Of a stretch of 53,078 nt of DNA, positions 2,715 through 49,044 are shown one piece after another. The DNA lies in IMG/VR virus record IMGVR_UViG_3300033067_001252, positions 1 through 53,078 of that record. One strand, 5' to 3'. The notes under the pieces were generated by a model. The model saw only the letters and a program-made list of their open reading frames with translations, was not told the DNA's origin and ran no database searches. The translations under genes and the position numbers were made by a program. Origin of the DNA: a virus (lineage: Duplodnaviria > Caudoviricetes). How positions within the stretch are numbered: the first letter of the stretch is position 1; every line of letters starts with the position of its first letter.

Positions 2715-2723
2715 TGTTAGAAT
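2715..2723 (+). promoter_or_regulatory. Extended -10 promoter for the structural operon
   Basis: TGtTAGAAT just upstream of the AGGAG RBS of 2750. Confidence 0.55.
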
Positions 2724-2749
2724 CTGAATAGGAGAAAAACTCTTTTTAA

Positions 2750-3160: not shown

Positions 3161-3171
3161 GGAGAAATAAA

Positions 3172-4792: not shown

Positions 4793-5182
4793 ATGTTAAA
4801 GATATTCGCAATCGTGGCCCTCACCATCTTATTTGTGGTGGGGGTTATTAACCCGTTAATTGGCGCATCAGGCTCCACCCGTTTCAACTACGGAAGCTAC
4901 ACCCTCACAGATTCCATCCAAACTGTTCCCACTTCCCCCACTTCGTTAAGTTCCTCGGATACCTATGTATTCCAGATTACAGTTACAAACATAACGGGAA
5001 GTGATGCCACCTTCACAGTTACAGACGGTAGTGGAAAATACCTATTCGCAGGTGTAACCGTGGGGGCAAATACCACTTACGTGATGGCATTCCCCGAGGG
5101 TCAAAAAATGTCTTCCGGCCTCTCCTGGTCCTCAGGAACCTCTAATGCCCTCCAAGCCTCTGTTCGTGCGCGTAGGACTTAA
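4793..5182 (+). CDS. Signal-peptide beta-sandwich-like protein, paralog B
   Basis: LIG|ASGS; shares VFQIxVTN, NTTYVxxFPEGxKM and ALQAS with 3463-3864. Confidence 0.85.
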   Translation: MLKIFAIVALTILFVVGVINPLIGASGSTRFNYGSYTLTDSIQTVPTSPTSLSSSDTYVFQITVTNITGSDATFTVTDGSGKYLFAGVTVGANTTYVMAFPEGQKMSSGLSWSSGTSNALQASVRARRT

Positions 5183-11188: not shown

Positions 11189-13465
11189 ATGCCCGAATAC
11201 GGAACAGTGCCGGAAGTTGAGCAGATTTCTCTATCGAATGAACCGTTTAAATTCTCCACGGAACAATTAACGGAGTCCTATGCGCTCACACAAGTTCTTC
11301 AAGATTTTTATTGGTACGAAAGGGAGCGCCAAAGTTCGGAACGACGCTGGAGATTAAATGACGCCCTCTATTGCGCCTATGTAGAACCCCGGTATTGGCC
11401 GAACACGAAGCTCATGAGGTCAAATCTCGGGGCTGGAATCGTGAGTGAACAAGTGGAAGCCGCCTATGCAATGCTTTGCCAAGCGCTTTTCACCCAACCG
11501 GAGTATTTTTCCATTGAATCCGACGTGGGGGGTGATCCAAAAGCGGCCCGAGCACAGGGGGCTTATATGGATTATGCGTTTAATTACCCCCAGCTAACCC
11601 AATTAAGCGCGGAAGTGGAGTATAAAAACGCGGCGAAGGATCAGTTGCTCTACGGGGCGGGTATTCTTAAGGTAGAGTTCAACTCCGATCTCAAATTACC
11701 TTATATAACCCGTAAGGACCCTCGAAATATCTACTTCGATCCCGCCACTCCAGGGCCTTTTATCGACCGTTCTCGCGCGGTTATCGAAAGAACGTTCCTC
11801 ACTATCGAAGAACTTGAGAAATTTCGCGCCGATAAGCGAATGTATGTCCCCTCAAATGACATTCTATGGACCCTCGCTCAAGGAGTTAACAAAACGGATG
11901 GTGATCGGGGTAAAGAATATAAGGAATCCCTCCACGGGGTTATGTATTCCATCGGCGCAAGTGATAATTCCCCCGTTCCATCACAAAAGAAAATCGAACT
12001 CCTTCAGTATTACTCGAAAAATCAAATTATTTGGATTTTAAACCGCAAAATCGTGATGTACAAGGACGAAAACATTTACGGGTTCATTCCCTACGTCCTT
12101 ATCCCTTGTTACGTCTACACTGGTAGTCCTTATTCTCTTTCGATAGCGGATATGCAGGAATCCAACCACCGTTATCTAGAATCCCTCGTAAATGCCCGCT
12201 TAGATCAGGTCACACTTTCCCTATTCCCCCCACGGGCAGTTCCTAGGGGCTTTATGTTCACCCCTCAAATGCAAACTTGGGGGCCTGGGTCAATGTACCA
12301 GATGGAAAACCCGGATCAATTCAACGCGATCACCCCCCAAGATACAACAAAGGATATTTTCCAAGAGATTGGATACATCCAGAACACTGCGGATAGACGA
12401 ACGGGAATTAATTCCATGTTAAGCGGAATGCCTTCCCCGTCAAACGCGAATCGAACCGCTCAAGGTGTTAATTCTCAGCTTCAGGGGTCCGCCATTAGGC
12501 TCTATCCTATTGTTGATAATTTCGAAAACTATGGGATTATCCCCTCGGTGTGGAAGGCCCTTAAAATAAGTGAAATCCATTTAACCTCAAATGACGCAGT
12601 TCCAGGGGTTTTAAGGGACCAAAATAACCCCGAGGAAGTTCAATTCATCCGTATCTCTGCCGAAGCGTTTAAACAAAACACCCGTGTGCGTTGTAGAGCC
12701 GCCTCAAAGATGCTCTCCCGAGATCGATTAACTCAAATGTACCAATTTGTTGCCCAAAATGTGATGAACGGGCAAGTGATCGGGATGTTGAATCAAAGCG
12801 GCCAAACTGTGGATTTCTCCGAATTAATCCAAATGTTAATGGACGCCACTGGCGTACCTCGTCGTTACCAAATCATCCGTCCCCTAAGCGATCAAGAAAA
12901 GCAGTTCATGCAGCAACAACAACAAGCCCAGGAACAGGCAAAGCAACCTGGGGAAATGGCAAAGGCCCAACTCGAAGCCCAAACCCGCCTCCAAATGGGC
13001 CAAATGAAAGCCCAGGGGGAACAGCAGAAAAACCAAGTTGCTTTACAAATCGCGCAAATGAAATCCTCTGGCCCCACCCCTGAGGAAATCCAAATGGAAC
13101 AAATGAAGAACCAAATGGAGATGGCTCTTAAGAGTAAGGACATGGAGATGAAGGACCAAGATATGCGCTCTAAAGAAGCCGTAGCGAGGTTGAAAATCTT
13201 CATGGATCAAGCTAAACTAAGAGCTAAGCAGGGAGAATTACAAATGAAGGCCCAAGAGGGTCAAATGGGACTCGCCGCAAAACGCCAAGAAATGGGGATG
13301 AATTTACAAACTAAAGCCCTCATGAACCGCCAAGCGTTAACCCACTCCCAGGAGGCCCATGAACAGAAACTCGAATTAAAAGAAAGTGAGCCCCGAGTTA
13401 ACTCCGTTAGAGTTCGTAAGAGTGCCGTTCAAACGGATCGTAAACGAGGGGATAAGAAGAGTTAA
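11189..13465 (+). CDS. Portal protein (P22-like) with a long Q/M/K-rich coiled-coil barrel
   Basis: YGAGILKV, DPRNIYFDP, IPYV..P, ADRRTGI...SG, RTAQGV motifs; position after terL. Confidence 0.92.
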   Translation: MPEYGTVPEVEQISLSNEPFKFSTEQLTESYALTQVLQDFYWYERERQSSERRWRLNDALYCAYVEPRYWPNTKLMRSNLGAGIVSEQVEAAYAMLCQALFTQPEYFSIESDVGGDPKAARAQGAYMDYAFNYPQLTQLSAEVEYKNAAKDQLLYGAGILKVEFNSDLKLPYITRKDPRNIYFDPATPGPFIDRSRAVIERTFLTIEELEKFRADKRMYVPSNDILWTLAQGVNKTDGDRGKEYKESLHGVMYSIGASDNSPVPSQKKIELLQYYSKNQIIWILNRKIVMYKDENIYGFIPYVLIPCYVYTGSPYSLSIADMQESNHRYLESLVNARLDQVTLSLFPPRAVPRGFMFTPQMQTWGPGSMYQMENPDQFNAITPQDTTKDIFQEIGYIQNTADRRTGINSMLSGMPSPSNANRTAQGVNSQLQGSAIRLYPIVDNFENYGIIPSVWKALKISEIHLTSNDAVPGVLRDQNNPEEVQFIRISAEAFKQNTRVRCRAASKMLSRDRLTQMYQFVAQNVMNGQVIGMLNQSGQTVDFSELIQMLMDATGVPRRYQIIRPLSDQEKQFMQQQQQAQEQAKQPGEMAKAQLEAQTRLQMGQMKAQGEQQKNQVALQIAQMKSSGPTPEEIQMEQMKNQMEMALKSKDMEMKDQDMRSKEAVARLKIFMDQAKLRAKQGELQMKAQEGQMGLAAKRQEMGMNLQTKALMNRQALTHSQEAHEQKLELKESEPRVNSVRVRKSAVQTDRKRGDKKS

Positions 13466-15433: not shown

Positions 15434-16438
15434 ATGGCTTACGTTCCTGTAGGAATGACAACTACGAGCACTGGGTTAGCCCACCTAGTTGCCACGTATT
15501 ACTCAAAAGTGGGGCTGGATCGTGCTCAGAAGACATTCCGATTTAAGGAACCTGCCTTTTCTGATATGATGCCCAAGCGTGTGGGTCGGACCTGTCAATG
15601 GTTCCGTTATGACAACATGACGGGCACTACGGCAACCTCACGTGAAGGGACCGTGGGTACGTCGCTAACGATTAGTTCCAAGATTGTAGCTGCGGATCTA
15701 TCCCAGTATTCCGCGTTTATTTCTTTAAGCACCTTCGTACAGGATACGGCAATCGATCCTATCGCGGAAAACGCCTCCGATCTCCTAGGGTATCAAGCAG
15801 GGCTTTCTAACGACCTCGTGATGCGTGCTGTGGTGGATAATTTCAACTCCTCAACCGTAATCACTGCGAATGACACCTATTTAACCGCAGAAGATGTTCG
15901 TGGTGGTTATACTCGCCTCCAGGGACGTGATTTCCTACCCTTCGATGACGGTAATTTCCTTTGTATCCTACATCCCTATACATGGTTCGATGTTATTAAC
16001 GATCCCGCTGTAAACGGCTATTCTGACATGTTCAAGTACTCTGGTGCGCCAAAGTTCTTGAACAACGATACAAACGCCCGTAAGATGGGTGGGGATGTTT
16101 TCAACGGTGTGAAGTGGCTCCGAACCACCAACGTAGCGACCGGAACCGATGCGCAAAGCCGGAACACCTATCGTGTTTATCTATTCGCGAAGAACGGTGT
16201 GGGTTATTCCTCACTAGAGGGTGTGGCACCATCTGACGTTACCGATCCTAATACTCAAAAGTTTAAGATCAACACGATTAGCTCCCGTGGTGTGACTCCT
16301 TACGATCCAACTGGGGAAATCGGTACCATCGTTTCATATCGTTATACCTTCACTGGTGTGGTAACCGAGGGTCCTTCCGGTATCGGTGGTAACTTCCGTT
16401 ATGTAACCTGGGATGTCCCAACTCGGTTAGGTCTATAA
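15434..16438 (+). CDS. Major capsid protein (HK97 fold, N4-gp56-like family)
   Basis: MPKRVGRT.QWFRY, EG..G, QYSAFI..S......IDP, HPY..FD, GVKW.RT, DP.GE.G.VSY motifs; 334 aa. Confidence 0.92.
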   Translation: MAYVPVGMTTTSTGLAHLVATYYSKVGLDRAQKTFRFKEPAFSDMMPKRVGRTCQWFRYDNMTGTTATSREGTVGTSLTISSKIVAADLSQYSAFISLSTFVQDTAIDPIAENASDLLGYQAGLSNDLVMRAVVDNFNSSTVITANDTYLTAEDVRGGYTRLQGRDFLPFDDGNFLCILHPYTWFDVINDPAVNGYSDMFKYSGAPKFLNNDTNARKMGGDVFNGVKWLRTTNVATGTDAQSRNTYRVYLFAKNGVGYSSLEGVAPSDVTDPNTQKFKINTISSRGVTPYDPTGEIGTIVSYRYTFTGVVTEGPSGIGGNFRYVTWDVPTRLGL

Positions 16439-17217: not shown

Positions 17218-17982
17218 ATGCGTGATTTTTCTCGTCTCGATGCGTTCCTAGATGATCGCAAGAAAGACATCGGACCTTCTGTGTTGATGGCGCGTCCCAA
17301 GGAATTTATCGAGGCTCTCATCAATACCTTCACCCAAATCGTTCCCATCAAAGACAAGGTTTTAATCGACATCGGTTGTGGCCTCGGGGATGATCTCGTT
17401 TATTACAAATCCCTTGGGGCTAAACCCATTGGGTTAACAGCTATTAAGGATGAAGGCTTGGCTAAGAACATTGAAGCTCACTCCTTAGAGGTAATCCTTG
17501 GGGACCAATCTTTTATCCCCCTTGAAGATGACCATGTGGATGTGATTACCGCCCGCCACGTTTTGGAACACTCCATTTTTCCGTACTACACCCTAACGGA
17601 ATACAATCGGATTTTAAAATTAAAAGGATTTGCGTATATCGAGGTTCCTCAGCCTGATACCGTGGCGGACCATGAACATAATGCGAATCATTATTCAGTT
17701 TTAGGTTTACGTATGTGGCGGGATCTATTCTATCGGTGTGGGTTCAATATCCTAGCGGAATTTAACTTACATTTCCACGATAAGGAAGATCCTGCAAAGC
17801 CGCTTGTGGATTCTTGGGTTGGATTTGCGCTACAAAAGACTAGTGTTCCCATGAAGCCTTGGGTTGCGGATGTTCTAGGTCAGGAGAAGGTTATCTATAA
17901 AGGTGATTATGCGGATTTACATAAGAATCCTGAATATTTCCCACGTAAGGTAGCGGAGGCTAAGTTAAATGAAACCAATTAA
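17218..17982 (+). CDS. Class I SAM-dependent methyltransferase (Methyltransf_11/23-like)
   Basis: LIDIGCGLG motif I; DVITARHVLEH; RILKLKG...IEVP. Confidence 0.9.
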   Translation: MRDFSRLDAFLDDRKKDIGPSVLMARPKEFIEALINTFTQIVPIKDKVLIDIGCGLGDDLVYYKSLGAKPIGLTAIKDEGLAKNIEAHSLEVILGDQSFIPLEDDHVDVITARHVLEHSIFPYYTLTEYNRILKLKGFAYIEVPQPDTVADHEHNANHYSVLGLRMWRDLFYRCGFNILAEFNLHFHDKEDPAKPLVDSWVGFALQKTSVPMKPWVADVLGQEKVIYKGDYADLHKNPEYFPRKVAEAKLNETN

Positions 17983-19033
17983 TCTTTTCAGTCCAGTAAG
18001 TTTGGAGCCCTGGGATTTCACTAATTGTTGGGAAAAGGGCATTGGTGCCTCAGAACAAAACCACCAGATGTTACACGAAGAGTGGTTTGCTAAGGGTATC
18101 GAAAGCCGCTCCTATGCTCCCCTTTACCCGGATAAGTCCGATTTATTTTATAACGAAAAGGGATGGTATCGCCTAGAGCAGATTGACCCAAACAAGCCGG
18201 AAAATTATCTGATCTTCCGCGACCCTACGTTTTTCGATAGGGAGTTGCACCCAGAGGGGAATTATCTCTTTATTGCCCAGGATACCATCTATCCATTCAC
18301 GGAGGCCCAGCTAGCGAAGATTACGAAGTATATTTGCCTAAGCCCCCGTCATGCGGAATTAACTCTCGCTACGTTTCCCCAGTTGAAGGATAAGGTTTAC
18401 ATTTGCTCAAACGGAATCCGAGTGGAAACTATTGAGAAGATTGAAAAATTGGGGATTGAGCGGAATCCTAATAAGTTATTCTATGCTTCCTCCCCAGATC
18501 GTGGTTTGATCCTAACTCTCAAGAATTGGTTCCGTATTAAGGAACGGTGCCCAGAGGCGGAACTCCACATCGCATATGGATTCGAAAATTTAATCAAAAT
18601 GGGTGAAATGCTCCGTGATTGGCGGCTACCGTTCAAAAACGAACTCGAATCACTCATAACCCAAGATGGAATTCATTTCATAGGAAGGGTGAATCAAAAC
18701 GAGGTGCTCAAGCATTGGTTTAGTACAAATGTCTTTCTTTACCAAAACACCTTCTTTGAAACCTCGTGTGTGAGTCTAATGGAAGCAATGGCTTGTGGGG
18801 CAGTTCCGGTTACGAATAAATTAGGCGCGCTCGAAACCAACACCCTCCATGGCTATCTCTACGAAGGCACCCCGGATAAGGACCAAGTGTGTCGCCTCCA
18901 TCAGATTCATAAGACTTGTAATCTCATCCTTAATCCTTCCGAGGTGGAATTCCGAGATGAGATGATGACTGACGCAAGAGACACCTTCAATATTTCAAAG
19001 ATTGCAAATCACTACTTAGGATGGATGATTTAA
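17969..19033 (+). CDS. Glycosyltransferase, GT-B fold (family 4-like)
   Basis: GIGASE, NGI, YASSPDRGL, ETSCVSLMEAMACG (EX7E), GALE. Confidence 0.9.
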   Translation: MKPINLFSPVSLEPWDFTNCWEKGIGASEQNHQMLHEEWFAKGIESRSYAPLYPDKSDLFYNEKGWYRLEQIDPNKPENYLIFRDPTFFDRELHPEGNYLFIAQDTIYPFTEAQLAKITKYICLSPRHAELTLATFPQLKDKVYICSNGIRVETIEKIEKLGIERNPNKLFYASSPDRGLILTLKNWFRIKERCPEAELHIAYGFENLIKMGEMLRDWRLPFKNELESLITQDGIHFIGRVNQNEVLKHWFSTNVFLYQNTFFETSCVSLMEAMACGAVPVTNKLGALETNTLHGYLYEGTPDKDQVCRLHQIHKTCNLILNPSEVEFRDEMMTDARDTFNISKIANHYLGWMI

Positions 19034-39140: not shown

Positions 39141-41033
39141 TTAAAAACCTCCTTCGTAAGGTATTTTTTCTAATTCGCCCCAATTTACACCTTTTTTGGC
39201 CACCCACGGACAGTAAAACCCTTTCAATCTATGACTTTCCCCATGGAGAATATCGATGATATCTCTAATCTTCCTCTCTGGGTAATCCCTAGGAATACTT
39301 AAAAGAATTTCATCATGAACCTGGGCGTCCATTGTTACATCTTCGTTACAAACACTTCGAAGGAGTTCAAGTTGCTTCCCTTGTACATATTCCGCACCCT
39401 CACCTTGGCCGATTTTCGCAGCCGCAATCTTGGCATTCTCCGTGGGGGATTCAATAAGTGTAAGATAACTTCCCCATCGTGTTTGGATGAATCCCTTTTC
39501 TGCTTGCGCCATAACTTCACGTTGCCATTGGCGGATGGGGAATTTATCGCAGTAGACTTTCGTAACGAGGAGCGCTTTTTTTCGTAACTCAAGGGCCTCT
39601 TCCTTTGGGGTATTCTTTCGGAGTTTAAAGAGAATCTCTGCGAGGCGGATTCCGGTGAAGCCCACTACCTTTCCACAATAGTGCCAATCTTCATATATTT
39701 CTAAGGCCCCCATTTTAACAAGTTTTTGAACATACGGAGTGCGGATTTCGTATTCATCAAATAATTTAAGTCCCGCTAGATAGTTTGTGGAGTGGGACGT
39801 AATCTTCGCCATATCCCTCGCGGACTTACCTGCGATTTTTCCAGCCATCTCGAATCCGCTTGGGTCTTGATTAACGAGCCATGTGAAGGCGTCTCTTTCA
39901 ATCGTTCGTGAGTCAATCCCAGCGTTATCCAGAACTATGCGCGTCTCAAGATTGCTAGCATCGCTCGAACACCAGATTTTTCCAGGAGGGGGAATGAAGA
40001 TTTTCTTAACCTGTTTTCCCCACCCTCTAGCGGGACAATTTCCAGTGATCTGAACTCTTCCTTCCCTGCGAACCACAATAAAGGCCGATGGGACCGCAAC
40101 ACAGTAAACAGGCTCATCAATCACTTCTTCTATCTCTTTGGAGATATTTGTAGTCATCGAAAAATTGCGATAGGTTACATATAAATTCTTACAGTATCCT
40201 CCGTCTTTATTGAAATAATCCCTAGCAAGTGTTCTTGTATTCGAAAGAGCGTAAAGAGCCGAAATGATGTCTATATTTTGGGACTTACCGGAAGAATAGC
40301 ACGTCCGAAGTTTGAACAAGCCATCCCAATACATAATCTCATCTAAGACAAGATCAATCTGTTTTCTAGATAAATCAAACATCCATTGTTGGAATGTTTT
40401 TTCTTCCGTTAAATAGCGCCTAGATAGCGGCTCCCAGACATTAAAACGTGTCCTACCTCTTTTATCATTATTTGACTTTGAATATCTAAACCCACAGTTT
40501 TTAAGTATCTCTTCTAGGCGCAACACCTTTCTTTCCTTATAGAAGGAGAAAGAGGCTGATGTGGTTCCTTTGTTATATGACCCATCTGCTTGGGTTGCGA
40601 TTAGATACCTTAGCTCATCATCTGTTAAATCAACTCCATCTCCTCCGTCCCACATTCCGGCATGAAGTTGGATATAATCCTCTGGATAATCGATAGCATC
40701 CACAACTTTGTATACATTTGTCTTACGTTGTCGGACAAGACATCTATGGTTAGCCGTAACGCGCATATTGATATGTTCGTTATAGAGCCCCACCATCTTT
40801 CCGGTGTAGTTATAGGAAATGTAATCCAGAGGTTGAACGAAGGTTATCTTTCCATTGTCCCATTGTGCTACAACATCATCCTCCTTTAAGTCTATAAATC
40901 GTACCCACCCTCGTCCGGTAAGAACATCTGTTTTTGAATCAAAGCAGTTTTGAATATTCGGTCCTGACGAAGCGAGGCGCATTGTGGAGGCACCTGTGAA
41001 GATTACTCGTGGGTGGACTTTAGGTAATCCCAT
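39141..41033 (-). CDS. polA: DNA polymerase family A, palm/fingers half, containing an intein
   Basis: VHPR..TGASTMRLASSGPNIQN; motif A SDASNLETR; motif B RDMAKITSHSTNY; motif C QVHDEIL; GVNWG. Confidence 0.93.
   Translation of the reverse strand: MGLPKVHPRVIFTGASTMRLASSGPNIQNCFDSKTDVLTGRGWVRFIDLKEDDVVAQWDNGKITFVQPLDYISYNYTGKMVGLYNEHINMRVTANHRCLVRQRKTNVYKVVDAIDYPEDYIQLHAGMWDGGDGVDLTDDELRYLIATQADGSYNKGTTSASFSFYKERKVLRLEEILKNCGFRYSKSNNDKRGRTRFNVWEPLSRRYLTEEKTFQQWMFDLSRKQIDLVLDEIMYWDGLFKLRTCYSSGKSQNIDIISALYALSNTRTLARDYFNKDGGYCKNLYVTYRNFSMTTNISKEIEEVIDEPVYCVAVPSAFIVVRREGRVQITGNCPARGWGKQVKKIFIPPPGKIWCSSDASNLETRIVLDNAGIDSRTIERDAFTWLVNQDPSGFEMAGKIAGKSARDMAKITSHSTNYLAGLKLFDEYEIRTPYVQKLVKMGALEIYEDWHYCGKVVGFTGIRLAEILFKLRKNTPKEEALELRKKALLVTKVYCDKFPIRQWQREVMAQAEKGFIQTRWGSYLTLIESPTENAKIAAAKIGQGEGAEYVQGKQLELLRSVCNEDVTMDAQVHDEILLSIPRDYPERKIRDIIDILHGESHRLKGFYCPWVAKKGVNWGELEKIPYEGGF
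40038..40946 (-). mobile_element. Intein (303 aa) with a LAGLIDADG-type endonuclease region
   Basis: PNIQN|CFDSKTDVLT; block B VTANHR; LIATQADG and IMYWDG; VYCVAVPS...ITGN|CP. Confidence 0.93.
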
Positions 41034-41214
41034 TCTGTTCTCCCGGTATGTTAAACAACGGCCAACGTTTCATTTGAATAACACAACACGGTAATGGGCA
41101 CATGTAAAGAATTTCGCGTTCTCTATCCCAGTATGCCCCAACCCATAGATCATACCAAGCTAGGAATAATCTAATCGTCCATCTTCCTCGTCTAAAAAAT
41201 ATGGCCTTAGTCAT
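41020..41214 (-). CDS. Small Trp-rich phage protein lying between the two polA halves
   Basis: FLAWYDLWVGAYWD....LY..PLP motif; overlaps both neighbours by a few nt. Confidence 0.8.
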   Translation of the reverse strand: MTKAIFFRRGRWTIRLFLAWYDLWVGAYWDREREILYMCPLPCCVIQMKRWPLFNIPGEQNGIT

Positions 41215-42457
41215 ATCGAATATACTTCTCCGCTACCCACGCATCTGTTCCCTTCCCCATAGTTTTGTACAAATACAAATCATAAAGAGCCTGTGTTACT
41301 TCGTCCATTTCAACATCTTCCCCCATTTCACCAATTGTTGAAAATCCATGTTTTTCATAAATGAGTTCCTCAAGAACTTGTTCTATCGTTCCCTTGTCAT
41401 TCGCCTTTAGTGCTACGCCGTTTTTCTCGAAGAACTTCACTACCTGGATGTTACTCCGGGGGTTGAACCTTGGGTTACCCTTGGGGAAGAGTTCTTCTTT
41501 TTTCCGCTCCATTTCCTTTTCCAAACGATGTGCGAATTCTAGGTCCACATGAATACCGCGTTTTTCCGCTGCTAAGCAAAAATTTAACGCCAGTTCCTTG
41601 TGTTCCTCATAGACTCTCCATGGAATTCCTTTCTCCTCCATAAAGAGTTTACAGTTGTTAAATACCTCTAAGCCCACCCAGGCATCAACGGCGCAGTAGG
41701 ATCTCGGGCAATGACTTGGGCAGGGAAAGTTTTCTAGAATTTGGGCTTCACAATGTAAGCCCGCACAAGTCTTCCATTGATGAATATGGGTCCAAAGATG
41801 GCCCGCAAAACCCAAATTCATGAACCCAAGCCCACCTTCCCCATCATCGGCTTTTCCAGGCGCCTTACTTAATTGACTGGCACAGAGGTAATGGGTAATC
41901 ATCGAATCCTCCCAAAGCCAAAGAGGCGTCTCTACTCCCATTGCTTCCTCTAAGACTGGCTTATCTGCCCCAAGCACGTAATGTCCCACAAAACTTGGCC
42001 GCAAGGAGAGTCGCTCATTCGCCAAGCCAAAGGGATCAATGGCACGTAATAGTGCATGTCCAATATCCTTGTCCCACCAGCAGGCTGCGCACTCGGTTTT
42101 ATTAGCCACTCCGACAATGCTAAGTCTGCGTGTACTGGGATTGTATTCGAAATCAAGCCCAATTTCGAGGTTTTCATTAATAATCCTTAATACATCTTCC
42201 CGCTTTGTTGAGATTTTTGGTAACGCCCAGGAGGGAATTCTTTGTCGCTTATCTTCAAACCGTAGACCATATGTTACAGGCTTTCTTCCATCCTCTGGTA
42301 GGTAAATCCCATCCGCCCTAGACTTCCTCTTCGCGGGCTTCTTTTTATCACTTATGAGAAACCCTGCGGACTTGAAATTTTCAACTTTGAATTCCTTCGT
42401 GGAGGGGGTGAATTTTATCCCTTCGCCAAAGAGGGATAACTGGGAATCTTTTTTCAT
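41207..42457 (-). CDS. polA: DNA polymerase family A, 3'-5' exonuclease plus thumb half (start revised to MKKDSQ)
   Basis: ExoI GLDFEY; ExoII GH....D; EDSM; ExoIII YCAVDA; E.RGIHVD; FNPRS..QV; ATGA coupling at 42457. Confidence 0.88.
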   Translation of the reverse strand: MKKDSQLSLFGEGIKFTPSTKEFKVENFKSAGFLISDKKKPAKRKSRADGIYLPEDGRKPVTYGLRFEDKRQRIPSWALPKISTKREDVLRIINENLEIGLDFEYNPSTRRLSIVGVANKTECAACWWDKDIGHALLRAIDPFGLANERLSLRPSFVGHYVLGADKPVLEEAMGVETPLWLWEDSMITHYLCASQLSKAPGKADDGEGGLGFMNLGFAGHLWTHIHQWKTCAGLHCEAQILENFPCPSHCPRSYCAVDAWVGLEVFNNCKLFMEEKGIPWRVYEEHKELALNFCLAAEKRGIHVDLEFAHRLEKEMERKKEELFPKGNPRFNPRSNIQVVKFFEKNGVALKANDKGTIEQVLEELIYEKHGFSTIGEMGEDVEMDEVTQALYDLYLYKTMGKGTDAWVAEKYIRYD

Positions 42458-42735
42458 ATATACTGCCTTTGCGCATCTGTCAAAACAATATGTTCTATGA
42501 ACATATCCAGACACATCTTAGCGTCCTCGTATTCCTTCTTATATCCATCCTCACAACAAAGACAAGAATCTTCTCGTTCCACTTTGTTTAGGATCTTCCG
42601 CACCTTTCCTCTTAGGTTTTTAAAAATCGTCCAACAGGCTGGACATAAACTAATTCGATTTGACTTCTTGTGTTTCCACCCCCATGGGTAAAGAAGACCT
42701 TCGGAACTTTCTCCAGAGCCGCATTTTGCACACAT
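42454..42735 (-). CDS. Small Cys-rich (Zn-finger) protein
   Basis: CAKC...LCPAC...CLCC. Confidence 0.75.
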   Translation of the reverse strand: MCAKCGSGESSEGLLYPWGWKHKKSNRISLCPACWTIFKNLRGKVRKILNKVEREDSCLCCEDGYKKEYEDAKMCLDMFIEHIVLTDAQRQYI

Positions 42736-43329
42736 TTATTTGATCTCCTTTAAAAATTTATCCTTCTTTGTTTCAAACGGCCACTCCCCAACCCACCAGT
42801 GTCCTACCCAATCTTTAAACGTGGTGCCCCGCTCATTACCCGTATCCGCGAAGAGATGTGGATTAATCGCTTTCGCAACTTCGTGGCCCATTAAAATTGC
42901 CGGCCGTAAGTCCTTTTCTTTCAACAACTTAGCGATCTCGAAGGCTCTCCGTATGAAAACTTTGTAGGCGGGGATTTTGAACGCTTCGTTAATGTCGTAA
43001 GTAATGATGAACGCATTTGGGTTAAAACGTTCGATCCCAGAATCGTGGACCCTACAGATGTTGATAACCTTAAGAAGCGCCACGGGGATTTTTTTAACGT
43101 CATAAGAACACCGGATGAGAGAAGTGTAACCTACATTACACTTTGGAATCCCTCCCATAAGCTCCTGCCAATAATCTTTAAAACCCGCCTCCCCCAAGGA
43201 TACCTCTTCCTTTGTGGGCTGACGACGGATGAGGTAAACCCATGGGTCGGGGGGTTCTAGGTCAGGGACGAATCCGAATGAACATGGGGTGATACTACAG
43301 CTTTTACAGGCCAAAGGCTTTGAGTTCAT
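42736..43329 (-). CDS. Degenerate uracil-DNA glycosylase family 4-like protein
   Basis: CKSC; FVPD; QP..EE...GE; YTSLIRC; ICR; FNPN..I; ILMG..VA; lacks the canonical GEAPG. Confidence 0.6.
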   Translation of the reverse strand: MNSKPLACKSCSITPCSFGFVPDLEPPDPWVYLIRRQPTKEEVSLGEAGFKDYWQELMGGIPKCNVGYTSLIRCSYDVKKIPVALLKVINICRVHDSGIERFNPNAFIITYDINEAFKIPAYKVFIRRAFEIAKLLKEKDLRPAILMGHEVAKAINPHLFADTGNERGTTFKDWVGHWWVGEWPFETKKDKFLKEIK

Positions 43330-43334
43330 TATTG

Positions 43335-43577
43335 TTACCCAATCTGGGATGTAAATTGTTTAGTTTTAAACTTGTAGGTCCCACCTAAATTCGAAGGACC
43401 CTCTAGAACCGCCCCCACGAAGCGAAAGTTATATGAAGCAAATCCTAGGGGCGATACAACTTTAGGTGGAACAACTTTTGCTACAGCTTGGGGGAAAAGT
43501 TTGATTCCGAATAAAGCCGCTAGTGGTGCTAATAGGGTTAGGAAGAACTCCTTCCTAGTCTGACCAGTCATATTCAA
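43335..43577 (-). CDS. Tat-like/hydrophobic leader fused to a major-capsid C-terminal homolog
   Basis: TRKEFF plus hydrophobic stretch; last 33 aa align without gaps to capsid residues 301-333 (13 identities). Confidence 0.8.
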   Translation of the reverse strand: MNMTGQTRKEFFLTLLAPLAALFGIKLFPQAVAKVVPPKVVSPLGFASYNFRFVGAVLEGPSNLGGTYKFKTKQFTSQIG

Positions 43578-43761
43578 CCTCTTTTTCTTTAATTTCAGCT
43601 AAGAGCCTCTTTAATGTAACTCGCGCATTGTTTAGCCGTAGTAGTTCTATATACTCTCTTTGAGAGATTTCTGAGTAATACCCATAAAATTTCTCAACCT
43701 CAGGATCGTCATCAAATCTCCAATCTCCGGGTTCCGCTTCGTAGACAAAGATTTTCTTCAT
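43555..43761 (-). CDS. Hypothetical protein (68 aa)
   Basis: AAAGGAG RBS. Confidence 0.8.
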   Translation of the reverse strand: MKKIFVYEAEPGDWRFDDDPEVEKFYGYYSEISQREYIELLRLNNARVTLKRLLAEIKEKEVEYDWSD

Positions 43762-43803
43762 TTGGGCTAACTCCTTTGGGGATTAAAAATTTAAACTACT
43801 TAA

Positions 43804-43828
43804 GGGGAGCCCCACTCAAGGAGCCCCC
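43804..43828 (-). terminator. GC-rich hairpin after the SSB-like gene
   Basis: GGGGGCTCC-ttgagt-GGGGCTCCC; weak U tract. Confidence 0.4.
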
Positions 43829-43846
43829 ACATAAATTTACTAGCGT

Positions 43847-44539
43847 CTAGAACGGAACTTCAGGTGAGAAACAAACGAACGGTCGCACGAAGAAAACTTC
43901 CTTCTTCTGGGCGTACTTTTCTGCCCCTTCAATGGCCTTCATGATTTCCTTGTGGACCTCCACGGTAGGATAGAACAACCCAGCGGTTTCCATGTACTTC
44001 CCACGGACCTTAACGGGGTAACCCTTTTCGTTCACTACGCCACCTTCGCAATTCACCCATTGTTGCTTGAGCACATAACCAACTGGGGTGCCCATGAGGG
44101 ATGCGAAAATCTTATCCACCGCTTCCACTAGGGAATCCACATCGGAGGACTCGGAAAACGCTTGTTGCAACTCAGTTGCAATTTCGTTAAATTTATCGTT
44201 CGAGCCGCAAAGACCCTGGAGAGAAGCGAGCCCTACTTGCTGGTCATAAGAGGAACAATTAGGGGAGAAACCCTTGGGATCACGGGCGATGTTGGAGTCA
44301 TAAACCCGCTTCTTCCCGGAATCCGATTCCTGTGAGGGGGCATATCCAGGGCGAAGGAAGTCAGGGTGCCAAGTGACCCACACGTTGGCCTTTGAATTCG
44401 CGCTCCCCAAAGGATTGATAACGAAATGAGTTACAAGGTACTTCCCGGTTGAACTCTGCTTCGTTGGGGAGACTTGGGCGATTTCCCCCACACAGTACTG
44501 AGTTGGCTTTGGATCTGCGCCAGATGTGATGAATGACAT
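43847..44539 (-). CDS. Putative single-stranded DNA-binding protein
   Basis: OB-fold-like N-terminus (Y...I..V....SSTGK.L), C-terminal EVPF tail, downstream of the Sak4-like ATPase. Confidence 0.55.
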   Translation of the reverse strand: MSFITSGADPKPTQYCVGEIAQVSPTKQSSTGKYLVTHFVINPLGSANSKANVWVTWHPDFLRPGYAPSQESDSGKKRVYDSNIARDPKGFSPNCSSYDQQVGLASLQGLCGSNDKFNEIATELQQAFSESSDVDSLVEAVDKIFASLMGTPVGYVLKQQWVNCEGGVVNEKGYPVKVRGKYMETAGLFYPTVEVHKEIMKAIEGAEKYAQKKEVFFVRPFVCFSPEVPF

Positions 44540-44566
44540 TTTGTTTTTAATTTTCCTTTTCTATTT

Positions 44567-44807
44567 CTAAGATTGTAGTTCTAAATACTTTTCAATTGTG
44601 TTCTTAAGTTCCCGCATTTCTGACAAGGACATCATCAAGGAATTGGAATTGTATAATTGAACAGGTCCAGTTTTGAAGTAAATCCTATGGCAGCGAATGT
44701 GGGAATTTGCTTTTGGGTCCCAGTTACCTGTCATATCAGTTGTTATGGACCAATTTACGGTTGAAAACTTCGGAGTAAATTCTATTTCGTGCTACATCTT
44801 CTTCCAT
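44567..44807 (-). pseudogene. Frameshifted small gene, or a 55-aa ORF starting at 44734
   Basis: ATG at 44807 (MEEDV) is out of frame with a 74-codon open frame HEIEFTPKF...KYLELQS; total length 241 nt. Confidence 0.55.
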
Positions 44808-44817
44808 TTTATTTTTT

Positions 44818-45663
44818 TTAACTAATCTGTGAAACTACGTTGTTGTGTAATTTTACGAAATCGGCTTCCATCTTTTCAGGTAATGTAAACCGACGTTTCG
44901 TGGCTGCGGAGATATTAAGAGCGTACTCGAACTTATCCCCGCTCCGTAGGGTTTCGAACACAACGTCAAAACCATAACGGATAAATCGTGATGCGGCACC
45001 ACTTACGTCCGGTTCGTGTTTGGCTCGAACTTCGGTTTTATCTGGGCCAACCTTTTCGGAACCGTATTTAACCGCCGTTGTAACAATCTTATGGAGGGCC
45101 TTTCCCCCTGGGTTACGTAAACCAAAGAACTCACATAGGGTGCGAATTGTTCGGTTTTTGACCTTGCCCCAACCCTTAAAAGTTTCAAAAGATCCCTCAG
45201 AGGAATCGTCATTATTCGTATCCTCTTCCACCTCCGGGATAATATTCATCTGTTGGTGGAAGGAGAACCCATCCCAGATGAGGAAATCCGGTGAGAACTC
45301 CCAAAACCCTTCGATGAGCTTGTCTGGATCATCAAGGAATTTTCCAACATCCTCATGACTGAGAGCCACCCACGCAACATTTTCTTTGAAGGCCGCTTGG
45401 TTCTTCTTCGAGTTTGCATAAACCTGCGCACCGGAGATTCCATTGTCGTCTCCTAGGTCGGTGAAGATGATAAAAACTTTAAAACCCATCGCTGCGAGTT
45501 GAGCCGCTGTGGTGGTTTTTCCAGTTTCAGATTCACCAAAGATGAGGTAATTAATTTGCCGCGAATCCCCATCTTGGCCCGCTTTCTTCATCTTCATCTT
45601 GGGGGATTTCGCTGCGGAAACTGTTGCTCCGGGGCCTAGTTTTAAAGAGGGTTTAAAATCCAT
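44818..45663 (-). CDS. AAA_24 / Sak4-like P-loop ATPase
   Basis: LIFGESETGKTT; LIWDGFS; GWG; PDVSG......YGFDVV. Confidence 0.85.
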   Translation of the reverse strand: MDFKPSLKLGPGATVSAAKSPKMKMKKAGQDGDSRQINYLIFGESETGKTTTAAQLAAMGFKVFIIFTDLGDDNGISGAQVYANSKKNQAAFKENVAWVALSHEDVGKFLDDPDKLIEGFWEFSPDFLIWDGFSFHQQMNIIPEVEEDTNNDDSSEGSFETFKGWGKVKNRTIRTLCEFFGLRNPGGKALHKIVTTAVKYGSEKVGPDKTEVRAKHEPDVSGAASRFIRYGFDVVFETLRSGDKFEYALNISAATKRRFTLPEKMEADFVKLHNNVVSQIS

Positions 45664-45857
45664 TAATTACCCTCGCTTTGCTGGAACCGTTCTGGCATAT
45701 ACTTCTTCTCGATTGAGAGAATGAACTCATTGCAATCACTTAAAATTGTATCCGCAAACGGCTCCCCTAGTTCCCCATAAGAGAGGGTGATTCCTAGGGT
45801 TACCTTCCCGCGTTGGTTCTCGATTACGGAACCTACTTTTGTCGTAGATTTAGTCAT
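45663..45857 (-). CDS. Hypothetical protein (64 aa)
   Basis: Coupled ORF. Confidence 0.7.
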   Translation of the reverse strand: MTKSTTKVGSVIENQRGKVTLGITLSYGELGEPFADTILSDCNEFILSIEKKYMPERFQQSEGN

Positions 45858-46050
45858 TTTCCTTCGTTTCCTTTATAAATTCTTCAATCGCCGCCGCCAA
45901 AGATTTGAAATTGTTCTTACTCAGATAAATAGATTCACTCGATTCTCCCATCTCTGTAGATAGTTCAATTTCTGTGGTCTTAGCATGTGTGCGAATTGTA
46001 ATATTACCAACAGTTGTTACAACACGCTGTATTACGTTCTTATGTGTCAT
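45850..46050 (-). CDS. Hypothetical protein (66 aa)
   Basis: Coupled ORF. Confidence 0.7.
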   Translation of the reverse strand: MTHKNVIQRVVTTVGNITIRTHAKTTEIELSTEMGESSESIYLSKNNFKSLAAAIEEFIKETKEND

Positions 46051-46928
46051 TAATTTTCCTTAATCTTCTCGAATGCCTTCCGCCAAATCCTCTCTAACGC
46101 CGCGTGAACCATCTTTCCCACATTTGTGTTATCCTCATCCTTTTCCTCTAAACGTTCGATCTCCATTCTGCGGTATCTCTCGGGGCACCTTAGGAACATC
46201 TCCCTCCGAGAATAGGACATCTCTCTTAGTTCAATGGTTCTTTGCGGCATTGTGTTGTTTTCGCAATCTTTTAAGAAGGGACATACATAGCCGAAATCAT
46301 CACAAGATTGGGTGTTCTTGGGCCACACCTCCCATTCCTTAAGCGACTCCCGCATCACATCAATTCCTGCGATCCTGTGAGCCACGTCCGGTACAAGGGA
46401 TTCAGGTAGATTGAGAATGACTTCTCTAGACCTTTTAGCAGGTTCGCCTTCTTCGCCCTTCTTACGCCAGTCAATGGAACGAGACAGACCGCGATATATG
46501 AATAACGTCGCCGCAGATTCACGAAACTTATATTCCCTCCATTGATACGAGCGAAGACAACGGGTACGCCATGCGTCATTATCAACGGGAGAATTCGTGG
46601 TTTTCCAATCGATAATAACGAGGGAATCCTTAAAAGTTTTAAACGGCTCGATGGTTCCTTTACAGCGTGCGACAATATCAAGGAAAGCTCTGCCTTCGCC
46701 GTAGGGTTTCTCACACTCAATTTCATAGAATTCCTGTAAATCCCGAGCTAAATATGAGTCACACGCAATGCAAGCGAGTTCACATATTTCTTTCCAATCT
46801 TCCCCACTAAGACGATCCGCACCGGGTAGGGTTAGGAGTTCCTCGTTGATGGCACTTATGTCAAGCCACTGAAGGAGTTCTTTGGTGTCGATCTCTAGGT
46901 AGTCGTTTCCTTTCTTAGGTAGTTGCAT
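46050..46928 (-). CDS. PD-(D/E)XK (Cas4/AddB-like) nuclease, circularly permuted
   Basis: E...LD...IIDWKT...Q...Y core; C-x6-C-x5-C; then SYS...F.RCP..Y...G..VHAALE at the C-terminus. Confidence 0.88.
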   Translation of the reverse strand: MQLPKKGNDYLEIDTKELLQWLDISAINEELLTLPGADRLSGEDWKEICELACIACDSYLARDLQEFYEIECEKPYGEGRAFLDIVARCKGTIEPFKTFKDSLVIIDWKTTNSPVDNDAWRTRCLRSYQWREYKFRESAATLFIYRGLSRSIDWRKKGEEGEPAKRSREVILNLPESLVPDVAHRIAGIDVMRESLKEWEVWPKNTQSCDDFGYVCPFLKDCENNTMPQRTIELREMSYSRREMFLRCPERYRRMEIERLEEKDEDNTNVGKMVHAALERIWRKAFEKIKEN

Positions 46929-47121
46929 TTCCCGCCTCTTCCAATGGGCACCAATCTGGAATCATAGGATAGTTTTCTAAATCCCTATCTTCCCCTAGAT
47001 GCTCATGATTACAAAGTTGACCGTATACCTTGTGTTTTGTGAATAAGGAGAACAAATTGGGGCAATCCTTACATGAAGAAATTTTAACTATTCTCATAAA
47101 GTTTCCTCGGCCTTCCCCCAC
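46915..47121 (-). CDS. Small Cys-rich phage protein (likely start MRIVKI)
   Basis: SCKDCP...C...IPDWCPL motif. Confidence 0.75.
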   Translation of the reverse strand: MGEGRGNFMRIVKISSCKDCPNLFSLFTKHKVYGQLCNHEHLGEDRDLENYPMIPDWCPLEEAGNATT

Positions 47122-47628: not shown

Positions 47629-47991
47629 CTAGATTACCACCAACCAAGGATCACCACTCTCCGCAATCATCTTCCGAATGTCCAACGGTAGGATAATACA
47701 CCCGGTAGAAGCGCTCCCAGGGTTTGTAATCGAATCCCCGTGGATTAGGAATTGCGAACGGGAGAACATCTCATTTCCCTTCGCGGGGGTGAGCCGTAGC
47801 ACGAAGATCCCTAAATTTGCTACCTCGATGGGCTCCCCAATCTGATACAAACCCCTTGGGATAGGACCCTTGTTGCGCAAAATTTGGGCGGCTTTGGAAT
47901 TTTTATACTCGGGGGCACCGGAATAACCTCTTGCGAGGATTTTATCGTTATTACGTTGGATGTCCCCGGTTTGTTGGTTATAGATCCACAT
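47629..47991 (-). CDS. DUF2778/Tlde1-domain (L,D-transpeptidase fold) peptidoglycan-active protein; candidate lysin
   Basis: GYSG, GPIPRGLY, LRLTP, RS.FLIHGD, ASTGCII (His...Cys). Confidence 0.85.
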   Translation of the reverse strand: MWIYNQQTGDIQRNNDKILARGYSGAPEYKNSKAAQILRNKGPIPRGLYQIGEPIEVANLGIFVLRLTPAKGNEMFSRSQFLIHGDSITNPGSASTGCIILPLDIRKMIAESGDPWLVVI

Positions 47992-48000
47992 TTTAAAAAT

Positions 48001-49044
48001 TTAACTCCTCTCCAAGTATTCAGGTGAAACGGCCTTTAGCTTCCGTCCCGTTCGTAAATTTCGGATAACAATCCCTTCGCGGATTTGCTTAAGATCCCCG
48101 TATTTACGTGCCAGAACTGAGGGACCAGAAATGTAAGACTTCACAACTTCGTCACTGAAAGGGCCTTCATACAATTTTGGCACAACTGGGGTGGCATCAG
48201 GGAATTTATTCTCAATATCCGTTGGGTCTAGGAATCCCACTGAAGGGTGGTAGATATCAAAAATAACGAGTTTAATCTCATCCCCAATTCCGTAATGAAG
48301 ATCCTGGACTTTCCCATAGATTTCCCCATATACGATCACCCCAGGGTTGGCCTCAAGGTAGTTAACCAAAGTTGGGTTGTCCTTAAGAACGCCCCAATAA
48401 ACATCCCCTTCTTCATTGGAACGCCATAGATTACGGGAGCCCACGAAAAGGCGGTGGTTAAAGTTTTTAAGGAAGCGTCCAAATAAACTACGCCATAGAG
48501 GCAATTCACGAGGCTCCTGGAATGTGGCCCGCCAATTTGCCCCATGAATCTTTTCCGTTATCACAATAGGATCACCGTCTTGGAAGAACTCCTTCCCATA
48601 ACGGAAGTAAGATTCGATGTCATATGTGGAACCCTCAAAGGTGGGGACAATATCCTTTCGGATAACCCGTAACTCGCGTGCACTCTTAGGACCACCGAAT
48701 GAGCGCTCCGGGGGAACATAGTGGGTGACCCCAAGAATTTCCGCAACATCGTCTCCTACAGAACTTCCCGTGGGCGCTTTTAAAACCAAACCTTGGGAGG
48801 TCACACCCCGGAGTTTCATCGCCTTCACCCGGAACTTCTTACTTCGGAGGAATTCATATTCGGGGAGCTCTGGGAGAATGTTATCTGGGGGAACATAACA
48901 TGCTAAGTCACCCACTTTAAACTCCGAACTTCTTACAATACATTCGTAGCCGTAAAATTTCACTATCGAAAGGGAATCCGCATTTGGGTGTTTCTCAATT
49001 TCGGAAATGCGGAATACTTCCACTTTATGGGTTGAGTTACTCAT
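48001..49044 (-). CDS. ATP-dependent RNA ligase (DRB0094/Rnl5-like)
   Basis: N-terminal HPNADSL...KLRGVTSQGL domain; TEKIHGAN (KxxG); YGEIYG; FDI; REGIVI; LKAVS.EYL. Confidence 0.92.
   Translation of the reverse strand: MSNSTHKVEVFRISEIEKHPNADSLSIVKFYGYECIVRSSEFKVGDLACYVPPDNILPELPEYEFLRSKKFRVKAMKLRGVTSQGLVLKAPTGSSVGDDVAEILGVTHYVPPERSFGGPKSARELRVIRKDIVPTFEGSTYDIESYFRYGKEFFQDGDPIVITEKIHGANWRATFQEPRELPLWRSLFGRFLKNFNHRLFVGSRNLWRSNEEGDVYWGVLKDNPTLVNYLEANPGVIVYGEIYGKVQDLHYGIGDEIKLVIFDIYHPSVGFLDPTDIENKFPDATPVVPKLYEGPFSDEVVKSYISGPSVLARKYGDLKQIREGIVIRNLRTGRKLKAVSPEYLERS

What the first reader, a model, noticed from the sequence alone, without database searches (positions are those of the whole stretch)
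43335..43577. Candidate new system: membrane-targeted mimic of the major capsid C-terminus encoded in the early arm
Seen: the last 33 aa (43338-43436) SYNFRFVGAVLEGPSNLGGTYKFKTKQFTSQIG align without gaps to capsid residues 301-333 (16334-16432) SYRYTFTGVVTEGPSGIGGNFRYVTWDVPTRLG. There are 13 identities plus Y/F, I/L, R/K and T/S swaps, and both proteins end at essentially the same point. The fragment is fused to a twin-arginine-like leader (TRKEFF, hydrophobic core, AVA) and lies 27 kb away on the opposite strand among replication genes. The divergence suggests an old duplication or capture from a related phage, kept under protein-level selection. Known: capsid proteins trigger defences such as CapRel and Lit. 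Inference: a decoy that titrates a capsid sensor, a dominant-negative poison of competitor capsids, or a membrane tether for procapsid assembly.
Basis: partly seen in the sequence, partly recalled or inferred. Interest (0 to 1): 0.86.

Follow-up and report, generated by a model that had tools for sequence, protein, structure and literature searches.

The report
Small phage gene built from capsid tail-end
A 78-residue gene among this phage's replication genes joins a short hydrophobic leader to a copy of the last beta-hairpin of a major capsid protein, and it belongs to a rare, conserved and so far undescribed family whose function is unknown.

Summary
ORF 43338-43571(-) is 78 aa from its ATG. 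It ends in a 33-aa stretch homologous to the C-terminus of the window's N4-gp56-type major capsid protein (MCP, 15434-16438). BLASTP gives 13/33 identities, E 1e-7. No shuffle of 2000 reached the score. Within the window's 76 ORFs E is 4e-6. Family-to-family hhalign gives E 6e-13.

It is a real gene family. Three further small proteins share the plan of leader, Pro-rich linker and hairpin: P0002, P0004 and one on contig G014.

The hairpin is closer to capsids of another clade (20/33) than to its own capsid (13/33).

The family is rare. One clear copy turned up in 82 related viral records and none in 6 complete ones. The closest relative carries a degraded syntenic ORF.

"Twin-arginine" is weak: RR occurs in 1 of 4 members, and no Tat model matches.

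Membrane topology and function are untested. My best guess (about 0.35) is a membrane-held stand-in for the capsid's inter-capsomer contact hairpin. The main rival (about 0.3) is an exported envelope protein that merely reuses the hairpin. The decoy, poison and tether readings remain speculation.

The parts
43338..43571 (-). Small gene, 78 aa from the ATG. The stop is TAA at 43335-43337, and an alternative TTG start lies at 43577.
   Evidence: It is tightly packed: it overlaps the upstream 68-aa ORF by 17 nt and ends 5 nt before the next gene's ATG (43329). No terminator-like site was found in 42646-45000; the one found is at 42645-42628.
43578..43583 (-). Shine-Dalgarno-like AAGAGG, 6 nt upstream of the ATG
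   Evidence: Read directly.
43479..43571 (-). Leader, residues 1-31. It comprises T-R-K-E-F-F, an uncharged stretch at residues 9-23 (43503-43547), then K and AVA.
   Evidence: Kyte-Doolittle 15-residue maximum is 2.31 and the 19-residue maximum 1.88. AF2 predicts a helix at 6-20. The pattern [ST]R..[FW]F ... FG is shared by the family.
43437..43478 (-). Pro/Val/Lys-rich linker, about residues 32-45, predicted disordered. It may be a degraded remnant of the capsid sequence that precedes the hairpin.
   Evidence: AF2 pLDDT is below 50 at residues 22-34 and 37-40. hhalign extends to small-protein residue 33. Family-model alignments to capsids start at model positions 12-22 in 17 of 49 capsid hits.
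43338..43436 (-). Capsid-derived beta-hairpin, residues 46-78: strand, Gly/Pro-rich turn (EGPSNLGG), strand, ending at the capsid family's usual C-terminus
   Evidence: AF2 predicts strands at 47-57 and 67-77 with pLDDT about 78.
15434..16438 (+). Major capsid protein gene, 334 aa, N4-gp56 family, HK97 fold
   Evidence: TIGR04387 scores 66 bits against a cutoff of 60. phrog_1357 matches at E 2.7e-18. The AF2 model has pLDDT 82.6. The top Foldseek hits are phage capsids, including N4 (9e99).
16334..16432 (+). The capsid's own C-terminal hairpin, residues 301-333, with turn EGPSGIGG. This is the counterpart of the small gene's hairpin.
   Evidence: AF2 predicts strands at 296-310 and 323-329. 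The region is highly conserved in 96 full-length relatives. Assigning it to the P-domain hairpin and P-loop is an inference from HK97 chain order and from the N4 paper's P-loop at residues 358-373 (PMC11768535, passages).

Best explanation
What it is (high confidence, about 0.9). This is a genuine accessory gene that sits among the replication genes. It arose when the 3' end of an N4-gp56-type capsid gene, running through to the stop codon, was joined to a new N-terminal hydrophobic leader. The copied piece covers the last 33-55 codons. It encodes the long beta-hairpin whose Gly/Pro-rich tip I infer to be the P-loop at the junctions between capsomers. The fusion founded a small family, with four members found, that moves between phages carrying this type of capsid.

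How it most likely works (inferred, about 0.35). The leader holds the protein at the cytoplasmic membrane, with the basic C-terminal part facing the cytoplasm. There the free hairpin stands in for the capsid's inter-capsomer contact element. It would bind surfaces that normally receive that hairpin, namely the P-loops, P-domain or E-loop of capsid subunits, either the phage's own or a co-infecting relative's. This would tether or disturb capsomer joining. It could also self-associate through the same contact.

Shown: homology, family conservation, gene packing and a helix-linker-hairpin prediction. Inferred: membrane association, topology, and any binding to capsid protein.
For: - Homology. 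The family profile also hits capsid C-termini in 36 of 50 and 13 of 27 related records, with E down to 8e-15.
- Real gene: a strong RBS and an operon-style overlap with the upstream ORF. The G014 copy starts in an ATGA overlap with the upstream ORF.
- Family: P0002 (83 aa, E 5e-9), P0004 (72 aa, E 8e-5) and the G014 ORF (76 aa, E 6e-10, model positions 3-69) share leader, linker and hairpin.
- Independent contexts: only the hairpin is shared between the G014 and window neighbourhoods.
- Old copies with protein-level conservation: 55-60% nucleotide identity, with 7/13 to 9/21 identical codons among identical residues. NG86 dN/dS is 0.42 over 33 codons, with dS 1.36 and so near saturation.
- The long Gly/Pro turn is kept in all four members, with G13, P14, G18 and G19 at 4/4. 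The positions invariant in 87 capsids are mostly kept. A free hairpin would not need this turn merely to fold, which suggests the contact function is retained (inference).
- Positions that are hydrophobic in capsids, hairpin positions 5 and 26, are basic in 3/4 and 2/4 small proteins. This fits a stand-alone, exposed hairpin.
- Cytoplasm-facing topology: there are more K/R in the 15 residues after the hydrophobic stretch (+3) than before it (+1 to +2). Net charge is +7, +7 and +3.
Against: - No experiment or model here shows membrane insertion, topology or binding to capsid protein.
- The hydrophobic stretch is only 12-15 residues, which is signal-peptide-like and short for a transmembrane helix. 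An N-in/C-out or exported product is about as likely, and it would put the hairpin in the periplasm, away from capsid assembly.
- The protein-language-model neighbours of the whole protein include Tat-signal families at 0.86-0.90. This is a lead only.
- The closest relative (G001: flanking gene 77% identical, capsid 85%) has a 57-aa syntenic ORF with no hydrophobic core (KD19 0.69). Only the last 15 aa are alike. The gene is therefore dispensable or decaying there.
- It is absent from 6 of 6 records that are at least 90% complete, 5 of which carry the capsid hairpin motif, and from 81 of 82 related records overall.
- Similarity to the phage's own capsid is inconsistent: the own capsid ranks 66th of 87 for the window but is the best match for G014.
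- The dN/dS estimate rests on 33 codons with saturated dS.
Confidence: 0.4

Rival explanations
1. Exported or externally facing envelope protein. The leader would act as a Sec/Tat-type signal peptide or an N-in signal anchor. The hairpin would be a capsid fragment reused as a compact amphipathic module for an envelope job unrelated to capsids, such as superinfection exclusion or receptor or cell-wall modulation.
For: - The leader has a signal-like layout: an n-region with R, an h-region of 12-15 Gly/Ala-rich residues, and basic residues right after it. AxA sites occur in 2 of 4 members.
- The G014 member has S-R-R-N-W-F.
- Atlas feature neighbours include Tat-signal-bearing families at 0.86-0.90. 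This is a lead only.
- Sporadic, moron-like distribution in different gene neighbourhoods is typical of accessory envelope proteins. That generalisation is recalled, not tested here.
Against: - RR occurs in only 1 of 4 members.
- No Tat-signal HMM hit.
- No conserved cleavage site.
- The C-terminal part is strongly basic.
- It does not explain why the capsid-invariant turn and aromatic positions are retained.
Confidence: 0.3
2. Anti-defence decoy. The hairpin would occupy a host sensor that recognises the major capsid protein, without activating it.
For: - Capsid proteins are known triggers of defence systems. Examples are CapRel (PMC9712102, search listing with the start of its abstract) and Avs7/Dsr1 (bioRxiv 10.64898/2026.01.04.697583, passages).
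- The gene sits in the replication arm, so it is plausibly made before the capsid protein. That timing is an inference from gene order.
- Capsid-like positions are retained.
Against: - No defence system or host is known for this phage.
- The sensors described bind extended surfaces of the folded capsid protein (passages), not a 33-aa hairpin.
- A membrane leader is not needed for a decoy.
- No PADLOC or anti-defence search was run.
Confidence: 0.1
3. Non-functional leftover of an illegitimate recombination that copied the capsid gene's 3' end into the early arm.
For: The family is rare, the G001 version is degraded, and the gene is absent from complete relatives.
Against: - Four intact ORFs of 72-83 aa share the same three-part plan at 33-40% identity, in unrelated contexts.
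- The leader is conserved.
- RBS and translational coupling are present.
- Synonymous sites are saturated while key residues are kept.
Confidence: 0.08
4. Chance similarity between two unrelated sequences.
For: None beyond the short length of 33 aa.
Against. The family profile also finds capsid C-termini in 49 further records.
Confidence: 0.01

Closest known systems
N4-gp56 family major capsid proteins (TIGR04387 / PF25209; HK97 fold)
   Same: The last 33-43 residues are homologous, with the same beta-hairpin, the same Gly/Pro turn and the same C-terminal end point.
   Different: The small protein has none of the rest of the fold: no N-arm, E-loop, spine helix or A-domain. It carries a hydrophobic leader, sits among the replication genes, and has basic residues at two positions that are hydrophobic in capsids.
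Ccm of the satellite SaPIbov5, a capsid-protein homologue that redirects or blocks helper capsid assembly (PMC5052747; abstract and section headings seen)
   Same: A separate gene with sequence homology to a phage capsid protein, acting on capsid assembly rather than being the capsid. This is the working model I favour here.
   Different: Ccm is encoded by a satellite. It is described there as a homologue of the helper capsid protein, not a 33-aa piece with a membrane leader. Here the gene sits in the phage itself, and no effect on assembly is shown.
Tat (twin-arginine) signal peptides and uncleaved Tat signal anchors
   Same: A polar residue-R-x-x-aromatic-F start, a moderately hydrophobic Gly/Ala-rich core and basic residues after the core. 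Atlas feature neighbours include these families.
   Different: RR occurs in only 1 of 4 members, RK in the window. No match to Pfam or NCBIfam Tat-signal models. Export was not tested.
Small phage membrane proteins made early, such as superinfection-exclusion proteins like T4 Imm/Sp, and membrane-bound initiation of T4 head assembly (both recalled, no call)
   Same: Size, an N-terminal hydrophobic segment, location among non-structural genes, and sporadic distribution.
   Different: No sequence relation was found. None of these, as far as I recall, is built from a capsid fragment.
Capsid-sensing defences (CapRel, PMC9712102, search listing with the start of its abstract; Avs7/Dsr1, bioRxiv 2026, passages)
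   Same: They make the capsid protein a molecule worth imitating.
   Different: No link to this gene is shown. The sensors described recognise the folded protein over large surfaces.

Membership tests
N4-gp56 family major capsid protein (for the capsid gene 15434-16438) | Score at or above the curated cutoff of TIGR04387 | tested here: met
   66 bits against a cutoff of 60, E 3.3e-18. Sources name relatives as 'N4-gp56 family major capsid protein'.
N4-gp56 family major capsid protein (for the capsid gene 15434-16438) | HK97 fold | tested here: met
   The AF2 model has pLDDT 82.6. Foldseek finds 329 PDB matches at E <= 0.001, topped by phage capsids including N4 9e99.
N4-gp56 family major capsid protein (for the small ORF) | Full-length match to the family or fold | tested here: not met
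   No Pfam, NCBIfam or PHROG hit. Only the last 43 capsid columns align. It is a fragment-derived protein, not a capsid protein.
Tat signal peptide | Consecutive arginines in an S/T-R-R-x-F-L-K-like motif | tested here: not met
   The window has T-R-K-E-F-F, P0002 has S-R-A-Q-F-F, P0004 has T-R-S-Q-F-F and G014 has S-R-R-N-W-F. RR is therefore present in 1 of 4.
Tat signal peptide | Match to curated Tat-signal models (Pfam, NCBIfam) | tested here: not met
   No family at E <= 1 for the window protein in Pfam. None at E <= 10 for the other members in Pfam. None at E <= 10 for all four in NCBIfam. HMMER filters drop most weak matches, so this is not a strong negative.
Tat signal peptide | Moderately hydrophobic h-region followed by a basic c-region | tested here: met
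   Uncharged stretches of 12-15 residues, with 3 K/R in the following 15 residues. G014 was read.
Tat signal peptide | Tat-dependent export | not testable with these tools
   Needs reporter fusions in tat mutants.
Sec signal peptide / signal anchor | n-h-c layout with a conserved signal-peptidase site | tested here: inconclusive
   The n- and h-regions are present. AxA occurs after the core in the window (AVA) and in P0002, and is not evident in P0004 or G014. No SignalP or TMHMM tool was available.
Capsid-homologue assembly interferers (Ccm-like) | Alters or blocks capsid assembly of a target phage | not testable with these tools
   Needs co-expression and electron microscopy.
Capsid-homologue assembly interferers (Ccm-like) | Homology to the capsid protein over its fold | tested here: not met
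   Only the C-terminal hairpin, with or without a degraded linker, is homologous.

The most novel reading that the evidence does not exclude
Phages with N4-gp56-type capsids carry a mobile accessory gene that displays, at the membrane, a free copy of the capsid's inter-capsomer contact hairpin. This fragment mimic would bind capsid subunits, the phage's own or a rival's, or a host capsid sensor. That would make it the first example of a class of accessory phage genes built from pieces of structural proteins.
Probability: 0.3. Interest if true: 0.85.

Novelty: categorically new. Interest (0 to 1): 0.6.

Why it matters
If the hairpin really engages capsid subunits or capsid sensors, this would show a new way for phages to make accessory genes. 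They would clip a contact element out of a structural protein, attach a targeting leader, and use it as a competitor or tether.

That would matter in three ways. It would bear on phage-phage competition and on capsid-triggered immunity. It would help annotate the many small unknown phage ORFs, because a search for "leader plus structural fragment" becomes possible. And it would give a 33-residue handle on an inter-capsomer contact that is otherwise hard to probe.

Even if the function turns out to be unrelated to capsids, it is a clean case of a new gene born from a fragment of an essential one.

My literature searches listed nothing like it among the titles and abstract openings shown. That is weak evidence of novelty, because the held library is only part of the literature.

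Tried and rejected
- **Complex prediction** of capsid (A4) with small-protein residues 40-78 (A2): no verdict, score 0.00 in two runs, controls not run. This is no evidence either way.
- **Expression:** no RNA holder was listed among 14 runs.
- **Population variation:** contigs from 4 runs in 3 studies gave only 100%-identical pieces over the small ORF. No variants means no pN/pS.
- **Named phages:** blastn of 40000-47000 and tblastn of the small protein against 50,697 phage records found no match. The capsid's best named hit is only 25% identical.
- **Word-index protein search** with the small protein and with A2 returned only the three known members.
- **Locus scans for the small family:**
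  - Viral contigs with A2 and with P0002: none confirmed.
  - Metagenome contigs with A2 and with P0004: none confirmed.
  - Viral contigs with A5: 10 confirmed, of which 1 is the G014 small ORF and 9 are capsid ends.
- **Neighbour-gene anchors:**
  - The 197-aa protein found only G001 and nothing in genome contigs.
  - The 230-aa protein was not confirmed in viral contigs, although ORF listing of L009 shows a like 229-aa ORF at 2583-3272.
- **Host:** the capsid scan of prokaryote genomes gave 3 MAG contigs, with no small-ORF copy in them. The host remains unknown.
- **PDB sequence searches** with the capsid and its profile gave no usable alignment of the C-terminus. The P-loop assignment therefore stays an inference.
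- **Atlas search** of residues 40-78 gave no usable hit.
- **Tree** of 101 hairpins on 38 columns was unresolved. One clade of the four small hairpins is not rejected (p-AU 0.40) but is not shown either.
- **Leader comparison:** the G014 125-aa ORF leader against the window leader gives 6/8 identities, E 0.069, not significant.
- **Promoter/terminator scan** was not above shuffles.
- **Supplements:** paper supplements were not consulted. They may hold capsid residue maps relevant to the P-loop assignment.

Full report
**Setting.** The window is a 53,078-bp viral metagenome record, about 82% complete by CheckV and 46% G+C. It has two arms.
- The + arm (about 1.7-35.2 kb) holds structural genes: an SU10-type portal at 11189-13465 and the capsid gene at 15434-16438.
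- The - arm (35.2-52.9 kb) holds replication genes: a DnaB-like AAA_25 protein, Metallophos, family-A polymerase, AAA_24, a PD-(D/E)XK nuclease and an RNA ligase.
- The capsid protein passes the curated N4-gp56 model at 66 bits against a cutoff of 60. It folds as an HK97-type protein with pLDDT 82.6, and the top structural matches are phage capsids including N4.
- No named phage is close. DNA search finds no match, and the best capsid hit is 25% identical.

- ORF 43335-43577(-) exists. The probable start is the ATG at 43571, six bases after GAGG, inside the end of the upstream 68-aa ORF. The next gene starts five bases after its stop.
- Its last 33 residues align without gaps to capsid residues 301-333: 13 identities, 21 positives, pairwise E 1e-7.
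- In 2 x 1000 shuffles the best score was 52 against the observed 80.
This pair has E 4e-6 / 3e-5 and is the second strongest pair in the window.
- A profile of the small family against a profile of 82 capsids gives 97.9% probability and E 6e-13, aligned to the very end of the capsid.

**It is a family, not a one-off.**
- An exhaustive HMMER pass over 1.84 billion representatives found five proteins at E <= 0.001. One was the query itself. Two were small proteins with the same plan: P0002 (83 aa, E 5e-9) and P0004 (72 aa, E 8e-5). The other two were long repeat proteins matched only over query residues 4-58, which I treat as spurious.
- I then took 80 viral loci and 3 MAG contigs that encode related capsids. 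I searched 77 of these records with the family profile, plus 5 records searched earlier with the single protein.
- The profile hit the capsid's own C-terminus in 36 of 50 and 13 of 27 records.
- In one record, G014, it also hit a 76-aa ORF covering model positions 3-69 at E 6e-10.
- That ORF starts in an ATGA overlap with the gene before it. It lies about 19 kb from G014's capsid gene on the other strand. Its neighbourhood shares nothing with the window's except the hairpin.
- All four proteins have the same parts: [S/T]-R-x-x-[F/W]-F, a 12-15-residue Gly/Ala-rich uncharged stretch ending in F-G, basic residues, a Pro-rich linker, and then the hairpin.
- AF2 on the three-sequence alignment predicts a helix at 6-20, a disordered stretch at 21-46, and strands at 47-57 and 67-77 (pLDDT 61 overall, about 78 in the hairpin).

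**Where the hairpin came from.**
- Aligning 96 full-length capsid relatives shows a strongly conserved end: a strand, a turn of the type [D/E]-G-P-x-G-I-G-G, and a second strand. Most end exactly where the small protein ends.
- The window's small protein shares 20/33 residues with capsid P0084 and a median of 15/33 with 87 capsids, but only 13/33 with its own. Sixty-six of 87 capsids are more similar than its own.
- In G014 the opposite holds: its own capsid is the best match, at 21/33.
- At DNA level the copies are old. Nucleotide identity is 55-60%, and fewer than half to just over half of identical residues use the same codon. dN/dS between the two small genes for which I have DNA is 0.42 on 33 codons with near-saturated dS. 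This is suggestive only.
- A tree on 38 columns cannot decide between one origin and several (p-AU 0.40 for one clade). The shared leader makes a single fusion event the simpler reading.
- In 17 of 49 capsid hits the profile alignment starts at model positions 12-22. The linker may therefore also descend from capsid sequence.

**What the hairpin is in the capsid.**
- In the AF2 model it is the final long hairpin, with strands 296-310 and 323-329, coming after the A-domain elements.
- From the chain order of HK97-fold proteins (established knowledge, recalled), this is the P-domain hairpin, and its tip is the P-loop at three-fold junctions between capsomers.
- The N4 capsid paper places an extended P-domain loop at residues 358-373, forming the quasi-three-fold inter-capsomer interface (PMC11768535, passages).
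- I could not confirm the residue correspondence. Sequence searches against solved structures did not align the C-terminus.

**What is conserved, and what changed.**
- All four small proteins keep G13, P14, G18 and G19 of the turn, and mostly keep the aromatic positions that are invariant or nearly so in 87 capsids.
- Two positions that are hydrophobic in capsids, 5 and 26, are basic in 3/4 and 2/4 small proteins.
- I read this as a hairpin adapted to stand alone while keeping the special turn. That is an inference.

**Against an essential role.**
- The nearest relative, G001, has a capsid 85% identical and a flanking 197-aa gene 77% identical. At the same place it has a 57-aa ORF.
- That ORF begins N-R-R-M-F-F but has no hydrophobic core (KD19 0.69). 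It shares only its last 15 residues, about 50 nt, with the window's gene, and the genes upstream of it are different ones.
- None of 6 related records that are at least 90% complete has a copy.
- The gene is therefore accessory and mobile.

**The leader.**
RR is present in 1 of 4 members, and no Tat model matches.
- The layout and the language-model neighbours are nevertheless Tat- or Sec-signal-like.
- The charge balance hints at a cytoplasm-facing C-terminus: +3 after the core against +1 to +2 before it, and net +7 overall. That hint is weak.
- Topology is the key unknown, because it decides between the two leading readings.

**Mechanism.**
- I commit, at about 0.35, to a membrane-held stand-in for the capsid's inter-capsomer contact hairpin that engages capsid subunits.
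- The main rival, at about 0.3, is an exported envelope protein that merely reuses the hairpin.
- Anti-defence decoy: about 0.1. Dead remnant: about 0.08. Chance: about 0.01.
- The closest published analogue I found is Ccm, a satellite-encoded capsid homologue that redirects capsid assembly (PMC5052747, abstract and headings). It is a different kind of protein in a different kind of element.
- Five literature searches listed no leader-plus-capsid-fragment gene among the titles and abstract openings shown. The library is partial, and supplements were closed.

**Verdict.** The feature is unusual and, as far as I could search, undescribed. Interest 0.6.

Noticed in passing
window 3463-3864(+) and 4793-5182(+): Two adjacent-region ORFs of 133 and 129 aa are paralogues, 49% identical over about 128 aa with E 1e-35 to 1e-39. 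This is the strongest intragenomic pair in the window. Their function was not examined.
   Followed up: no
window 47629-47991(-): A 120-aa protein with a Tlde1 domain (PF10908, E 4.5e-12). This is an L,D-transpeptidase-like domain known from secreted effectors, and it sits among this phage's early genes.
   Followed up: no
window 17969-19033(+): A group-1 glycosyltransferase (PF00534, E 3e-8) inside the structural arm, shortly after the capsid gene.
   Followed up: no
L009:3862-4035 (contig G001), syntenic with window 43335-43577: A 57-aa ORF that starts N-R-R-M-F-F but has no hydrophobic core. It shares only its last ~15 aa (~50 nt) with the window's small gene, and the upstream genes are replaced. 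It looks like a recombination junction inside the gene, or decay.
   Followed up: partly
L126:1678-2055(-) (contig G014): A 125-aa ORF of no known family begins with an R-R-F-F-L-T-L-L leader resembling the window small protein's leader (6/8 identities, E 0.069, not significant). These phages may use such leaders on several cargoes.
   Followed up: partly
window 42700-44600: Contigs from four public runs in three studies (labelled riverine or freshwater where labelled) carry 100%-identical pieces of this stretch. One divergent piece covers only 42767-42864.
   Followed up: partly
window 48001-49044(-): An RNA ligase with a PHA02142-type OB-fold domain (E 3e-19 / 1e-17) in the early arm. No tRNA gene was found in the window.
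   Followed up: no
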